A DNA stretch of 64,000 nucleotides from a virus, in the IMG/VR virus record IMGVR_UViG_3300018080_005419; one strand, written 5' to 3'. The translations under genes and the position numbers were made by a program. The notes under the pieces were generated by a model, which worked only from the letters and a program-made list of their open reading frames with translations, made no database searches and was not told the origin of the DNA. This document shows, piece after piece, positions 29,922-48,416 of the stretch. Within the stretch, counting starts at the first letter, position 1; the number at the start of each line of letters is the position of its first letter.

Positions 29922-30085
29922 ATCTCCTGCTTAATTTTACCGCACAAAATTAGAAAAAGTATCATGTTTTTTGAAAATATTTTTGTAATTTCTTTTTTGA
30001 TATAGACTTAAGAAAAATACAGAAAGGAGAAAATATGTAGCAAAATCAGCTTCTCAATGAATATAATAAGACTCAAAGGAAAAAC

Positions 30086-30283
30086 ATGGGAAACAACTAT
30101 GTCCATTCTATAAAGGCTACTGAGGATGTGATTTGTCCTCATTGTGGGTATAAAAATTATCCTGGTATTGATGGATTTGATGCTTATGATGATGGTGGAG
30201 TTTGGAAAGCTTATTGTTTGAAATGTGAAAAACCATTCCATTTTGAAGAAGTTAGATGCTTTATGTCATATATTAGAGATTAG
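30086..30283 (+). CDS. Small Zn-ribbon protein
   Basis: CPHCG and CLKC motifs. Confidence 0.7.
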   Translation: MGNNYVHSIKATEDVICPHCGYKNYPGIDGFDAYDDGGVWKAYCLKCEKPFHFEEVRCFMSYIRD

Positions 30284-45725: not shown

Positions 45726-45863
45726 TGTTTAATCTCCTTATTTGCCTTCTACACAATATACTCCAAATATTCAAAAATATTAAAATACATATAACTACTT
45801 AGAAATAAAACAATTAAATATTTTTAAAAAGATATGAAATTTTTGGAGGGAGTTTTGTTTATA

Positions 45864-46043
45864 TTATTTAGAAAGGATCTCGATAGGATATGTTTTTAAG
45901 AGGCAAACTGTACAAATAGTTCCGTCTTCGCACATTTGGTCGAAAATTTCGTTGATCTTTTTCTTTGTTAATCTTTTGCAATCAAGAGGGATTGTTTCTT
46001 TGTGTCCGCATTGAAGTTTGAAAGTTATTGATTTCTGTGCCAT
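45864..46043 (-). CDS. 59-aa Zn-finger-like peptide
   Basis: Not in the track: MAQKSITFKLQCGHKE...ICTVCLLK... Confidence 0.55.
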   Translation of the reverse strand: MAQKSITFKLQCGHKETIPLDCKRLTKKKINEIFDQMCEDGTICTVCLLKTYPIEILSK

Positions 46044-46076
46044 AATAGGTTAAACTCTCTTTCTAAAAAGATAAAA

Positions 46077-46148
46077 GCGCCCGTCGTCCAATGGTTAGGG
46101 CTCAGATCTCTAAAATCTGTTATAGGAGTTCGATTCTCCTCGGGCGCA
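46077..46148 (+). tRNA. Amber suppressor tRNA (anticodon CUA)
   Basis: Cloverleaf: acceptor GCGCCCG/CGGGCGC, D arm GTCC-AATGGTTA-GGGC, anticodon stem CAGAT/ATCTG with loop CT-CTA-AA (anticodon 46110-46112), 4-nt variable loop, T arm AGGAG-TTCGATT-CTCCT, discriminator A; CCA not encoded (CTA follows). Confidence 0.9.
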
Positions 46149-46188
46149 CTAATATTATCAAAGAATCAAACTTTTTCAAATAGTTTTC

Positions 46189-46217
46189 TTGACAAACGAA
46201 GGAATATAGAGCATAAT
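46189..46217 (+). promoter_or_regulatory. Sigma70 promoter
   Basis: TTGACA, 17-bp spacer, CATAAT. Confidence 0.8.
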
Positions 46218-46222
46218 AGACA

Positions 46223-46325
46223 ATACTTGCAACTGGCTTGAATGGTAGATACGGAAGCCATAGGATATGTGACCCCGTACTATATTCTGAAAAGAACGAA
46301 TCAAGGTCATCCCCAGTGCAAGTGT
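46223..46325 (+). ncRNA. Candidate structured leader RNA of the Pth-like gene
   Basis: ATACTTGCA(A)CTGG pairs with CCAGTGCAAGTGT; inner GGCTT/AAGCC and GGAT..GACC/GGTCATCC stems; starts at the predicted TSS. Confidence 0.5.
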
Positions 46326-46342
46326 TCAGAAAAGGAAAAGAA

Positions 46343-46669
46343 ATGACCTAGGTAAAACACTGGAACTATATTCTCCTCCGTACTGATCTTCCAATAGATC
46401 AACAAATCGTCCAATCCGCCCATGCAGCTTATGAGGCGGCTTTATATTTGGACCAACCTCGCTCTCCTGTTAATTCCTTGGTTATTTGTGCTGTGCCTAA
46501 TGAAAACGCTCTGCTAAAAGAGTATGAGCGTTTGGCATCCTATAATATCGATTCAATTCTATTTCAAGAGCCAGATAGAAACAATGAAGCAACGGCATTT
46601 TGCACAGAGCCGATTTCTAAAAAGAAGAGGAAGTTATTTTCAAAATGGAAACTTTGGAAGGAGAAATGA
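46343..46669 (+). CDS. PTH2-like peptidyl-tRNA hydrolase with in-frame TAG at codon 3
   Basis: ATG ACC TAG GTA AAA CAC TGG AAC TAT ATT CTC CTC CGT ACT GAT CTT gives MT*VKHWNYILLRTDLPIDQQIVQSAHAA..LVICAVPNENAL..FQEPDRNNEATAFCTEPI; in frame with track ORF 46448..46669; the conserved N-terminal motifs lie upstream of the track start. Confidence 0.75.
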
Positions 46670-46670
46670 A

Positions 46671-46778
46671 ATGCGTTAGGCAAAAGCTCGTGGACCTCCT
46701 TTTTGGATTTCAGAAATGGCTTTAGGGCTAGTTTGTAGCAAGTTTAATTTAAGTACTTTGTTAATCTTAAACTTGTAA
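46671..46778 (+). CDS. Minigene ATG-CGT-TAG; read-through 35-aa peptide MR*AKARGPPFWISEM...
   Basis: AAGGAG RBS (46658-46663) 7 nt before the ATG; TAG at 46677-46679. Confidence 0.45.
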
Positions 46779-46842
46779 TAATTCTTAAAAACAGTTTTGT
46801 CAGAAAAAGATATACAAATTTCTGTCAAAAAGGAGAATCAAA

Positions 46843-47139
46843 ATGACTGCTATTGAGACGAAAAATGAAGTTCGCAAAGAGATTTTAGAAACAAAGGAAA
46901 AGATCAAGGCATTAGCTGCAATTCAAAAAGAAGAAAAACAACTTTTAAGAATGCCACATAATAAAATTCCAACAATAGATATTAAACTTCGTAGTGGAAA
47001 TGTTTATCAATGTGGCGGAATTGATCGTGCAGGTCGTTTAATGAGTATAACCAGAGAAAGAGCATATAAGATTACCAAACTCCATATTAAATATAATCGT
47101 ATGCGAGGAAAGCCAACAGATATGCATGAGTACAAATAA
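46843..47139 (+). CDS. Basic hypothetical phage protein
   Basis: AAGGAG RBS. Confidence 0.75.
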   Translation: MTAIETKNEVRKEILETKEKIKALAAIQKEEKQLLRMPHNKIPTIDIKLRSGNVYQCGGIDRAGRLMSITRERAYKITKLHIKYNRMRGKPTDMHEYK

Positions 47140-47150
47140 GGAGAAAAATA

Positions 47151-47549
47151 ATGGACATCGAACAAGAAGATATTGAGAAGTTTTTTGAAATTTATGAAGA
47201 CGTAAAACAAAAGATTGATGATATTGGGAACCTTATTAAATTTGGGAAAAAGAATGACTGGAGTTTAGAGGATTTCGAAGAGCACGGAGGAAATGTTAAA
47301 GCCTTCTTTGAGTATTGGCCCTCTTGTGGTTGTTGCGGCCCTGAACGTTGCTCTGTAGAAATTCCTATGCATTTGCTTTGGAATGAAAATGGCGAAGAAA
47401 AAGCACTTGAGTTAGGGAAAAGAAACCGCTTTATTGCCAAACAAGAAAAAATCAAGAAAGAGCGAAAAGAGAAATTAGAAAACAAAAAGAGAAACAAAGA
47501 AAAAGAACTGGCTGAATACAAAAGATTAAAAGAAAAGTTTGAAAATTGA
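47151..47549 (+). CDS. Hypothetical protein
   Basis: AAGGAG RBS; CGCC motif; coiled-coil tail. Confidence 0.75.
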   Translation: MDIEQEDIEKFFEIYEDVKQKIDDIGNLIKFGKKNDWSLEDFEEHGGNVKAFFEYWPSCGCCGPERCSVEIPMHLLWNENGEEKALELGKRNRFIAKQEKIKKERKEKLENKKRNKEKELAEYKRLKEKFEN

Positions 47550-47975: not shown

Positions 47976-48416
47976 ATGCCAAGAAATATAATCCGATTTT
48001 ATAGACACACTCAGCCTTGTTTTTGCTTTTCGAACTTTTTTAAGTTTCCAATAGTTCTTAAAGATAAAATATGGCCTACTTCGGAACACTATTATCAAGC
48101 CCAAAAATTCACAAATACTGAATATGAAGAAAAGATCAGGCTTCTCAAAACACCAAAACAAGCAGCAAATATGGGCAGAGACAGATCCCTTCCTCTAAGA
48201 AAAGATTGGGAAGAAGTTAAAAATGAAATTATGTACGAAGCTTTAACGGCCAAATTTTCCCAATCAAAAGAATTAAAATCTATTCTTCTAGCAACAGGAA
48301 ATGCAATATTGATAGAAGACTCGCCTAAAGACTATTATTGGGGATGCGGAAAAGATAATACAGGAAAGAATATGCTTGGGAGATTGTTGATGAAAATTCG
48401 CAAACAAATGAGGTAA
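47976..48416 (+). CDS. NADAR (YbiA/DUF1768) family hydrolase
   Basis: FSNF, WPTSEHYYQAQKF, LRKDWEEVK, LIEDSPKDYYWG, GKNMLGRLLMKIR. Confidence 0.92.
   Translation: MPRNIIRFYRHTQPCFCFSNFFKFPIVLKDKIWPTSEHYYQAQKFTNTEYEEKIRLLKTPKQAANMGRDRSLPLRKDWEEVKNEIMYEALTAKFSQSKELKSILLATGNAILIEDSPKDYYWGCGKDNTGKNMLGRLLMKIRKQMR

What the first reader, a model, noticed from the sequence alone, without database searches (positions are those of the whole stretch)
46658..46778. Second ATG-NNN-TAG minigene right after Pth; read-through exposes an RGPP arrest-like motif
Seen: AAGGAG, 7 nt, then ATG CGT TAG, continuing in frame as AKARGPPFWISEM... (35 aa). Two RBS-led ATG-NNN-TAG starts within 330 bp of a CUA tRNA is unlikely to be chance; I noticed no others in the window by eye. 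Established: RAPP/RAGP/RGPP-type sequences are ribosome-arrest motifs (SecM, ApdA/ApdP class). Inference: read-through would stall a ribosome on a very short peptide and yield peptidyl-tRNA for the adjacent Pth, or gate the downstream operon (46843 onward).
Basis: partly seen in the sequence, partly recalled or inferred. Interest (0 to 1): 0.72.

Follow-up and report, generated by a model that had tools for sequence, protein, structure and literature searches.

The report
Stop-codon-gated ribosome-stalling leader in phage
A tiny reading frame after a giant phage's Pth2-like gene has a UAG stop that the phage's own suppressor tRNA can probably read. Read-through would bring the ribosome onto a known stalling motif (Arg-Gly-Pro-Pro), and this should uncover the hidden ribosome-binding site of the next gene.

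Summary
AAGGAG (46658-46663), 7 nt, then ATG CGT TAG (46671-46679) continues in frame through RGPP (46689-46700) to TAA at 46776-46778.

- **Not chance.** These are the only two SD-led ATG-NNN-TAG sites on both strands of the 64-kb window. The same design, SD-ATG-x(1-4)-TAG-x(1-5)-R-[G/S/A]-P-P, recurs in seven other non-redundant phage loci. Controls with TAA or TGA gave 0 of 1114 and 0 of 964.
- **Selection acts on the peptide.** Arg and Pro codons differ between loci while the residues stay the same.
- **It is a leader of the next gene, not an appendage of Pth.** All six lineages that carry a homologue of window gene 46843-47139 have the leader just upstream.
- **RNA switch in the window.** 46696-46717 pairs with 46818-35 (-20.5 kcal/mol), covering that gene's SD. 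No shuffle (0/1000) and no genomic 31-mer (0/1729) pairs as well. Modelled SD accessibility is 0.02 with a ribosome terminating at TAG and 0.51 with one stalled at PP.

Best reading: an amber-read-through-gated arrest-peptide attenuator. Stalling itself is untested. I found no published description. This scan has noted the same class on other DNA (44 notes, at least 39 genomes).

The parts
46077..46149 (+). tRNA gene with anticodon CUA (amber suppressor); proposed trans-acting input of the switch
   Evidence: ARAGORN; Rfam RF00005 at 60.3 bits. CUA tRNAs also lie near the leader in L030, L039, L131, and on the contigs of L022 and L102.
46189..46217 (+). Sigma-70-like promoter (TTGACA-17-CATAAT), probably driving Pth, the leader and the next gene as one transcript
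   Evidence: 11 of 12 consensus match. No terminator-like or further promoter-like site was found on the + strand between 46372 and 46843.
46343..46669 (+). Pth2-like gene starting ATG ACC TAG (TAG 46349-46351). Its stop TGA (46667-46669) sits inside the leader's SD-ATG spacer.
   Evidence: Pfam PTH2 E=0.004. A profile of the family hits solved Pth2 structures at E about 0.001-0.002. Early TAG after M-x(1-2) in 11 of 11 phage loci (10 cultured-phage or GenBank records plus 1 IMG/VR contig), and after M-x(0-7) in about 68 of 80 IMG/VR loci.
46658..46663 (+). Shine-Dalgarno AAGGAG of the leader, 7 nt before ATG 46671
   Evidence: A strong SD stands at 4-7 nt before the leader ATG in all eight loci.
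46671..46778 (+). Leader ORF M-R-TAG-A-K-A-R-G-P-P-...; TAG at 46677-46679, stop TAA 46776-46778
   Evidence: Same architecture in L019, L022, L030/31, L039, L084, L102 and L131. TAG sites gave 8 hits of 897; TAA 0 of 1114; TGA 0 of 964.
46689..46700 (+). R-G-P-P codons (CGT GGA CCT CCT): predicted arrest site, with P-site on 46695-46697 and A-site on 46698-46700
   Evidence: RxPP is kept with different codons across loci: Arg CGT/AGA/CGC, Pro CCT/CCG/CCA/CCC. Arrest properties of RGPP, RAPP and RSPP are taken from PMC12992588. Stalling here is inferred.
46696..46717 (+). Sequestering strand (46696-46706 and 46711-46717), overlapping and just 3' of the Pro codons; pairs with 46818-46835
   Evidence: RNAduplex -20.5 kcal/mol. 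0 of 1000 shuffles and 0 of 1729 genomic 31-mers pair as well.
46795..46830 (+). Local hairpin (arms 46795-46806 and 46819-46830): the alternative partner of the target strand, leaving AGGAG free
   Evidence: Duplex -10.6 kcal/mol. Present in the MFE folds of the free and stalled states.
46818..46835 (+). Target strand including the SD AAGGAG (46830-46835) of the downstream gene
   Evidence: P(SD unpaired) is 0.02 with a ribosome terminating at TAG and 0.51 with a ribosome stalled at PP.
46843..47139 (+). Regulated gene ('gene X', 98 aa, unknown function). Predicted helix, beta-hairpin, helix.
   Evidence: Homologues lie directly downstream of the leader in L019, L022, L030/31, L039 and L102. 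No Pfam or PHROG match. AF2 model pLDDT 87.6. Only generic helical-hairpin or prefoldin-beta-like fold matches.

Best explanation
The ORF at 46671-46778 is a regulatory leader (uORF) of gene 46843-47139. It works as an arrest-peptide translational attenuator whose input is amber read-through.

Proposed steps:
1. Ribosomes start at ATG 46671, either directly on AAGGAG or by re-initiation after finishing the Pth2-like gene at TGA 46667-46669.
2. If release factor 1 reads TAG 46677-46679, the ribosome leaves after two residues. The strand 46696-46717 is then free to pair with 46818-46835 and bury the SD of the next gene, so that gene is off.
3. If the phage's tRNA(CUA) reads the TAG, the ribosome goes on and arrests at R-G-P-P, with Pro codons 46695-46700 in the P and A sites.
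4. The arrested ribosome physically covers the sequestering strand. The target strand folds back into the small local hairpin 46795-46830, the SD is exposed, and the gene is translated. One long-lived stalled ribosome could license many initiations.

Shown by sequence and computation: the element, its statistical rarity, its conservation as a peptide, its linkage to gene X and to CUA tRNAs, and the specific complementarity.

Inferred: that the tRNA is charged and suppresses, that a 9-residue chain ending in RGP stalls, and the polarity of regulation.
For: 1. Rarity in the window: only two SD-led ATG-NNN-TAG sites in 128 kb of strand, 328 nt apart, next to the only tRNA, which has anticodon CUA.
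2. Recurrence: SD-ATG-x(1-4)-TAG-x(1-5)-R-[GSA]-P-P occurs in seven further non-redundant loci. In 404 kb read in six frames, 8 of 897 M-x(0-4)-TAG sites are followed in frame by R[AGS]PP. The figures are 0 of 1114 for TAA and 0 of 964 for TGA.
3. Peptide-level selection: Arg is CGT, AGA or CGC. Gly is GGA, GGG or GGT. Pro is CCT, CCG, CCA or CCC. L030 and L039 use CCG CCG, which is not an anti-SD sequence.
4. The tails after PP are not conserved in length (0-60 codons) or sequence, as expected if translation need not pass the motif.
5. Synteny: six of six gene X lineages with DNA in hand have the leader directly upstream. In L022 another gene separates it from Pth. In L102 no Pth lies between the tRNA-like gene and the leader.
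6. A CUA tRNA lies within a few kb in window, L030, L039, L131, L022 and L102.
7. RNA switch:
   - Window duplex is -20.5 kcal/mol and unmatched by 1000 shuffles or 1729 genomic 31-mers.
   - SD accessibility, terminating versus stalled: window 0.02 to 0.51, L030 0.20 to 0.72, L019 0.16 to 0.60, L084 0.00 to 0.69, L039 0.20 to 0.37, L022 0.22 to 0.35, L131 0.35 to 0.40.
   - Complementarity between stall region and ribosome-binding site beats shuffles in 5 of 8 loci.
8. Literature: RGPP supports the most robust arrest among RAPP-like cores, is EF-P-refractory, and is the most excluded tetrapeptide in bacterial proteomes. RSPP (L102) and RAPP (L084) are also arrest-permissive (PMC12992588).
Against: - No experiment exists. 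Stalling, suppression and regulation are all inferred.
- Published work says the RAPP-like core alone is insufficient and needs an adjacent N-terminal region (PMC12992588 discussion). Here only 6 residues precede Arg, and the nascent chain is 7-12 residues across loci. This is shorter than any characterised RAPP-type arrest peptide I read about.
- The switch is not uniform. L102 goes the opposite way (0.63 to 0.47). L131 and L022 change little, and their complementarity is no better than shuffles.
- In the unconstrained fold of the window, the Pro codons pair with the leader's own SD, and the whole-region fold is not unusually stable (z = -0.45).
- In the window the stall site is 148 nt from the regulated start, against 57-68 nt elsewhere.
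- In L019, L102 and L039 an ATG or GTG follows the TAG directly. There the RxPP frame might also be reached by re-initiation without suppression.
- The closest relative of gene X (P0013, 72% identity) could not be inspected at DNA level.
Confidence: 0.62

Rival explanations
1. Peptidyl-tRNA generator for the neighbouring hydrolase. The very short chain stalled at RGPP, or the two-codon M-R-stop minigene itself (as with lambda bar minigenes), drops off as peptidyl-tRNA. This would be a substrate or a titrator linked to the Pth2-like enzyme, and not a switch for gene X.
For: The leader abuts or overlaps the 3' end of the Pth2-like gene in window, L019, L030 and L039. Chains of 7-12 residues are in the size range prone to drop-off (general knowledge). 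In L084 the leader heads an operon that contains Pth.
Against: The leader follows gene X, not Pth. In L022 another gene lies between. In L102 and L131 there is no Pth next to the leader. The strong and specific complementarity of the stall region to the next gene's SD has no role in this model. Bar-type minigenes need no conserved in-frame sequence after the stop.
Confidence: 0.1
2. RNA-only element. The CCUCC-like stretch is simply an anti-SD strand of a hairpin or attenuator. The ATG-x-TAG and the RGPP reading are by-products with no role for translation of the leader.
For: In window, L019, L022, L102 and L131 the Pro codons do read as CCUCC-like anti-SD sequence and pair with an SD.
Against: L030 and L039 encode RGPP as AGA GGA CCG CCG, with no anti-SD sequence, and use the following bases for pairing instead. 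An anti-SD strand could sit in any frame. Yet in all eight loci it is in frame with an SD-led ATG and an early TAG and is preceded by Arg plus a small residue. TAA and TGA controls give 0 hits. Variation is concentrated at synonymous positions.
Confidence: 0.08
3. Suppression-independent arrest leader. TAG ends a tiny upstream ORF, and the RxPP frame is translated after re-initiation. The element would then be an ordinary RAPP-type arrest leader that senses something else, not UAG decoding.
For: ATG (L019, L102) or GTG (L039) stands immediately after the TAG in 3 of 8 loci. This is more often than expected for a random codon.
Against: In the window, L022, L030, L084 and L131 there is no start codon between the TAG and RxPP, so read-through is the only route. 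TAG is used exclusively, never TAA or TGA. A CUA tRNA is encoded nearby. The neighbouring Pth2-like gene shows the same early-TAG gate in most loci.
Confidence: 0.07
4. A real 35-residue small protein with a hydrophobic C-terminal half, made only under suppression.
For: The read-through frame stays open for 32 codons in a 33.5% GC genome. The tail is hydrophobic.
Against: Nothing after RxPP is conserved. Tails run from 0 to 60 codons with unrelated sequences, and in L102 and L131 the ORF ends 0-1 codon after PP. The tail codons in the window coincide with an AT-rich hairpin.
Confidence: 0.04
5. Chance co-occurrence with no function.
For: The ORF is short, and the whole-region fold energy is not unusual.
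Against:: unique in the window, recurrent in independent phage lineages, absent from the TAA and TGA controls, and with unmatched complementarity to the downstream SD.
Confidence: 0.01

Closest known systems
RAPP-like regulatory arrest peptides: ApdA, ApdP, ApcA, SecM (RAGP), CruR and the Streptomyces lividans RAPP/RGPP uORFs (PMC12992588, PMC10987492, PMC10951233, PMC7897499)
   Same: A small upstream ORF carries an R-[A/G]-P-P core just before a regulated gene. The expected stall has Pro codons in the P and A sites. RSPP and RAPP variants seen in relatives are also documented arrest-permissive cores.
   Different: An in-frame UAG at codon 3-5 must be read through to reach the motif. The nascent chain at the stall is only 7-12 residues. 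There is no signal peptide or membrane anchor, so no pulling-force release. The element is phage-encoded and linked to a phage suppressor tRNA and an amber-gated Pth2-like gene. The regulated gene has unknown function, not Sec, YidC or metal homeostasis.
Leader-peptide translational attenuators such as ermCL-ermC and cat/cmlA leaders (general knowledge)
   Same: A ribosome paused on a short leader frees the downstream SD by displacing one arm of a mutually exclusive RNA pairing.
   Different: The trigger there is an antibiotic bound in the exit tunnel. Here the proposed trigger is decoding of a stop codon by a suppressor tRNA, followed by an intrinsic arrest motif.
Engineered amber-codon leader switches: TAG inserted into trp or tna leader peptides so that suppression controls downstream expression (PMC6412442, section 6)
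   Same: [quoted passage not shown]
   Different: Those are synthetic, act on transcription termination (rut site or attenuator), and use orthogonal tRNA/synthetase pairs. This element is natural, apparently translational, and uses an arrest motif.
Phage lambda bar minigenes (SD-AUG-AUA-stop; general knowledge)
   Same: A two-codon SD-led ORF, and a functional link to peptidyl-tRNA hydrolase.
   Different: Bar minigenes have no conserved in-frame continuation, no specific need for UAG, and no suppressor tRNA. Their effect is host toxicity when Pth is limiting.
Stop-codon-recoded phages (TAG read as an amino acid in late genes; Lak, crAss-like; PMC6784885, PMC10607447)
   Same: A phage-encoded CUA tRNA, with TAG used to make expression depend on that tRNA.
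   Different: This genome reads normally under code 11, and TAG ends many genes. In-frame TAGs are confined to the first codons of a few genes and this leader.

Membership tests
RAPP-like regulatory arrest peptides | Core motif R-[A/G]-P-P (or RAGP/RAPG) in the uORF | tested here: met
   RGPP at 46689-46700. RGPP, RSPP or RAPP in all seven related leaders.
RAPP-like regulatory arrest peptides | uORF lies directly upstream of a gene whose ribosome-binding site is masked by RNA that the stalled ribosome would displace | tested here: met
   In silico only. Window duplex 46696-46717 / 46818-35 at -20.5 kcal/mol; 0 of 1000 shuffles match it. SD accessibility 0.02 to 0.51. Same direction in 7 of 8 loci, weak in 2 and opposite in 1.
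RAPP-like regulatory arrest peptides | Adjacent N-terminal region in the exit tunnel that supports the arrest | tested here: inconclusive
   Only 6 residues precede Arg (nascent chain 9 aa; 7-12 aa in relatives). The literature says the core alone is insufficient, but that RGPP and RAPP need the least context.
RAPP-like regulatory arrest peptides | Ribosome stalling demonstrated (toeprint, peptidyl-tRNA accumulation) | not testable with these tools
   Needs in vitro translation or reporters.
Sec/YidC 'monitoring substrate' subclass (SecM, MifM, VemP, ApdA, ApdP, ApcA) | N-terminal signal or membrane segment and a downstream protein-localisation gene, with arrest released by pulling force | tested here: not met
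   The motif starts at residue 7, so no targeting signal can precede it. The downstream gene is a 98-aa soluble-looking helical hairpin with no Sec or YidC similarity.
Lambda bar-type minigenes | SD-led two-codon ORF ending in a stop | tested here: met
   AAGGAG-7 nt-ATG CGT TAG.
Lambda bar-type minigenes | Effect through peptidyl-tRNA drop-off and Pth limitation; no requirement for downstream in-frame sequence | tested here: not met
   A conserved in-frame RxPP follows the stop in eight loci, and only TAG is used. Drop-off itself is not testable here.
Stop-codon-recoded phage genome (TAG as sense, code 15-like) | Many genes, typically late or structural, interrupted by in-frame TAG and restored by reading TAG as sense | tested here: not met
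   ORF maps under code 11 and under TAG=Q are nearly the same. Long ORFs are intact under code 11.

The most novel reading that the evidence does not exclude
The leader is a natural sensor of genetic-code state. It reports whether UAG is currently decoded as sense in the infected cell, and it converts rare read-through events into a switch-like translational ON signal by means of a long-lived RGPP-stalled ribosome. With the early-TAG Pth2-like genes, it would define a small 'amber regulon'. That regulon would give a purpose to the orphan CUA suppressor tRNAs of standard-code giant phages, for which published genome papers could name no targets (for example XacN1, PMC5852040).
Probability: 0.5. 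Interest if true: 0.88.

Novelty: new variant of a known kind. Interest (0 to 1): 0.8.

Why it matters
- **A purpose for orphan suppressor tRNAs.** Many large phages that use the standard code carry a CUA suppressor tRNA with no known target. The XacN1 paper states that none could be identified. This element and the neighbouring early-TAG Pth2-like gene give such tRNAs conserved, testable targets.
- **A new kind of input for arrest peptides.** The signal would be the outcome of the competition between release factor 1 and a tRNA at one codon, rather than secretion, metals or antibiotics.
- **A test of arrest-motif requirements.** The element would show whether RGPP can act on chains of only 7-12 residues, which bears on the open question of how much N-terminal context RAPP-type arrest needs.
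- **A natural counterpart to an engineered device.** Synthetic biology built amber-codon leader switches deliberately (PMC6412442).
- **Easy to test.** The whole device is about 180 nt and could be assayed with standard reporters in laboratory strains.

Tried and rejected
The DNA around the closest gene X relative (P0013, 72% identity, a 3.7-kb JGI contig) and around the other protein hits could not be inspected.
- **Distant Pth loci lack the leader.** The 11 distant phage Pth loci (GAP32, ME3, Xoo-sp13, fHe-Yen9-04, Arash, RsoM2USA, LR756511, XbC2, Kaldavass, XacN1, L001) and L012-L017 have no such leader after Pth. This is what first pointed away from a Pth-specific role.
- **No DNA match in GenBank phages.** blastn of 45800-47200 found nothing. 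tblastn of gene X and of P0011 against the same collection found nothing.
- **Searches with gene X gave little.**
  - The window's gene X protein found nothing in IMG/VR.
  - The mixed alignment A2 was too divergent to scan with.
  - Sub-family alignments added only L102.
- **Fixed-layout DNA pattern scan of IMG/VR**. 29 stretches matched. Only the known lineages plus one new one (L131) are in frame. In-frame share among distinct hits is no higher than chance, so the scan added a locus but no statistical support.
- **L131's downstream gene is not demonstrably a gene X homologue** (hhalign probability 0.9%).
- **No function for gene X.**
  - Sequence searches: no Pfam or PHROG match.
  - Fold searches: Foldseek and VIA gave only generic helical hairpins or prefoldin-beta-like folds.
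  - ESM Atlas: nothing informative.
- **No known RNA family or terminator.** Rfam found only the tRNA in 45900-47000. No intrinsic terminator was found.
- **A first accessibility measure hid the switch.** Averaging over -14..+3 of the start gave 0.60 versus 0.61 for the window. Measuring the SD alone, and comparing a terminating with a stalled ribosome, revealed it.
- **tRNA identity not determined.** I did not establish which amino acid the tRNA inserts.

Full report
**1. What is there**

The window is AT-rich (33.5% GC) phage-like DNA. It reads normally under the standard code. ORF maps under code 11 and under TAG=Q are nearly identical, and TAG ends many genes. No whole genome is held for it.

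Its only tRNA gene (46077-46149) has anticodon CUA. A strong sigma-70-like promoter follows at 46189-46217. Then comes a Pth2-like gene, 46343-46669, beginning ATG ACC TAG. Its stop TGA (46667-46669) lies inside the spacer between AAGGAG (46658-46663) and ATG 46671.

The finding is exact. ATG CGT TAG (46671-46679) continues in frame as A-K-A-R-G-P-P-F-W... and ends at TAA 46776-46778. The next gene (46843-47139, 98 aa, here called 'gene X') has its own AAGGAG at 46830-46835. No terminator-like or further + strand promoter-like site lies between the Pth2-like gene and gene X.

**2. More than chance**

- Of the 52 ATG-NNN-TAG sites on both strands of the window, only two have a good SD at proper spacing: the Pth2-like start and this ORF, 328 nt apart. 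The TAA and TGA equivalents occur once each and are followed at once by another stop.
- R[AGS]PP occurs only twice in all six frames of the window.

**3. Context: early TAG in the Pth2-like gene is a conserved design**

- tblastn of the Pth2-like protein finds it in 36 GenBank phage records (33 cultured phages and 3 uncultured metagenomic phages), often unannotated.
- In all 11 loci inspected, the gene starts M-x(1-2)-TAG.
- In an IMG/VR scan with an alignment, about 68 of 80 loci start M-x(0-7)-TAG.
- CUA tRNAs lie nearby in several loci.
- The XacN1 genome paper states that no targets for its CUA tRNAs could be found (PMC5852040).

That neighbouring finding is not mine to judge here. It does show that amber gating is a real habit of these phages.

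**4. The mini-ORF is conserved, as a peptide**

I scanned all fetched loci for M-x(0-4)-TAG-x(0-8)-R[AG]PP-like frames. The hits were:

| Locus | Leader peptide | Source |
|---|---|---|
| L030/L031 | ML#ARGPP | |
| L039 | ML#VRGPP | |
| L019 | MFT#MPRGPPP | |
| L022 | MDYG#ARGPP | |
| L084 | MKKL#ILSARAPP | |
| L102 | MVFW#MQCRSPP-stop | |
| L131 | ML#ARDRGPPV-stop | |

Each is preceded by a strong SD at 4-7 nt.

- In 404 kb read in six frames, 8 of 897 M-x(0-4)-TAG sites (7 non-redundant) are followed in frame by R[AGS]PP. The figures are 0 of 1114 for TAA and 0 of 964 for TGA.
- Codons vary while residues stay. Arg is CGT, AGA or CGC. Gly is GGA, GGG or GGT. Pro is CCT, CCG, CCA or CCC.
- L030 and L039 use CCG CCG, so the motif is not merely a CCUCC anti-SD string.
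- Everything after PP is unconserved, from 0 to 60 codons.
- The competing ATG at 46666 is 2 nt from the SD, and its frame has no counterpart elsewhere.

**5. It belongs to the next gene, not to Pth**

The genes downstream of the leader in L019, L022, L030/31, L039 and L102 are homologues of window gene X. A profile search found 17 family members, all unannotated. All six gene X lineages for which I hold DNA have the leader directly upstream.

- In L022 another gene lies between Pth and the leader.
- In L102 the leader follows a tRNA-like gene and no Pth intervenes.
- In L131 it follows a GroES-like gene and precedes an unrelated small gene.
- In L084 it heads an operon whose Pth gene lacks its own TAG.
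- Distant Pth loci without gene X lack the leader.
- A CUA tRNA lies just after gene X in L030 and L039, and about 0.36 kb after the leader's downstream gene in L131. One also lies on the contigs of L022 and L102.

**6. How it most likely works**

The literature establishes the following (PMC12992588; PMC10951233):

- RGPP is the most robust RAPP-like arrest core.
- It is refractory to EF-P.
- It is the tetrapeptide most excluded from bacterial proteomes.
- RSPP and RAPP are also arrest-permissive.

In the window, the bases on and just after the Pro codons (46696-46706 and 46711-46717) form an 18-bp interrupted duplex with 46818-35. This duplex covers gene X's SD and has an energy of -20.5 kcal/mol. 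None of 1000 shuffles and none of 1729 genomic 31-mers pairs as well. The same target strand can instead form a weaker local hairpin (46795-46830, -10.6 kcal/mol) that leaves AGGAG free.

With hard constraints mimicking ribosome footprints, P(SD unpaired) changes as follows:

| Locus | Ribosome terminating at TAG | Ribosome stalled at PP |
|---|---|---|
| window | 0.02 | 0.51 |
| L030 | 0.20 | 0.72 |
| L019 | 0.16 | 0.60 |
| L084 | 0.00 | 0.69 |
| L039 | 0.20 | 0.37 |
| L022 | 0.22 | 0.35 |
| L131 | 0.35 | 0.40 |
| L102 | 0.63 | 0.47 |

Complementarity between the stall region and the ribosome-binding site beats shuffles in 5 of 8 loci. So the best model is as follows. RF1 at UAG gives early release, the SD stays masked, and gene X is off. 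Suppressor tRNA at UAG leads to arrest at RGPP, the masking strand is held in the ribosome, and gene X is on.

A stalled ribosome would also amplify inefficient read-through. That may explain why a leader is used instead of a TAG inside gene X (inference).

**7. Caveats**

- Nothing has been tested experimentally.
- The nascent chain at the stall is only 9 residues (7-12 in relatives). Published work finds the core alone insufficient without an N-terminal neighbour region.
- L102 behaves oppositely in the model, and L022 and L131 are weak.
- The unconstrained fold of the window pairs the Pro codons with the leader's own SD and is not unusually stable.
- The window's stall site is 148 nt from the start of gene X, against 57-68 nt elsewhere.
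- In three loci an ATG or GTG follows the TAG, which leaves room for re-initiation there.
- Gene X has no assignable function. The AF2 model (pLDDT 87.6) is a helix, beta-hairpin, helix with only generic or prefoldin-beta-like matches.

**8. Comparison and novelty**

The element works like a RAPP-type arrest-peptide attenuator, and it meets the motif and uORF-position criteria. It is not a Sec/YidC monitoring substrate. It differs from all described members in three ways: the in-frame UAG gate, the very short chain, and the phage suppressor-tRNA context.

The engineered amber-in-leader switches are the closest logical analogue (PMC6412442). Four literature searches found no description of a natural one.

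After reaching this reading, I looked at the scan's own notes. They describe the same class on other DNA, with 44 notes in at least 39 genomes. These are unchecked AI notes and not independent evidence, but my results agree with them.

**Verdict**

- The 'feeds Pth' alternative is not supported.
- The element is a new variant of a known kind.

Noticed in passing
window 30021-30283: A third SD-led early amber: AAAGGAG, 5 nt, ATG TAG (30035-30040). It is in frame with a 65-aa Zn-ribbon-like ORF that has its own SD and ATG at 30086 and ends in TAG 30281-30283. Read-through would add 17 N-terminal residues and a C-terminal extension. It has no RxPP.
   Followed up: partly
L007 (Ralstonia phage RsoM2USA) 2403; L004/L011 (Xoo-sp13, XacN1) 934-937; L017 122-958: An HD-like domain protein also carries an early TAG (MKS#, MKK#, MK#). 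In Xoo-sp13, XacN1 and L017 it is fused N-terminally to the Pth2-like domain. This looks like a second conserved amber-gated gene family in cultured jumbo phages.
   Followed up: partly
L102 770-1015: tRNA-like gene halves (acceptor, D-arm and T-arm recognisable, ending in CCA) are separated by an insert of roughly 190-240 nt, directly upstream of the leader. ARAGORN and Rfam do not call it. It may be an intron-containing tRNA.
   Followed up: partly
L131 3744-4067: A GroES-like co-chaperonin gene sits immediately upstream of the amber-RGPP leader, within a cluster of 8 tRNA genes that includes tRNA(CUA).
   Followed up: no
L019 2296-2400; L030 2290-2399; L039 2270-2375: In these loci the Pth2-like frame either ends in TAG (L019) or runs on for about 25 extra codons, overlapping the leader in another frame. 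A ribosome stalled on the leader would then also block the end of Pth translation.
   Followed up: no
window 47976-48416: NADAR-domain protein (Pfam E=3.7e-42) a few genes downstream of the module.
   Followed up: no
window 46225-46330: A 5' UTR of about 100 nt lies between the promoter and the amber-gated Pth2-like gene. Rfam finds no known family there. Another note of the scan treats it as a structured RNA.
   Followed up: no
IMG/VR loci L111, L114, L116, L117, L119, L123, L125, L128, L129, L134, L136, L137: Twelve contigs share an identical SD-led ATG AAT TAG start (MN#QERSAIVWLL...). This may be another early-amber gene in an unrelated phage lineage. The RGPP-like bases there are out of frame.
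   Followed up: no
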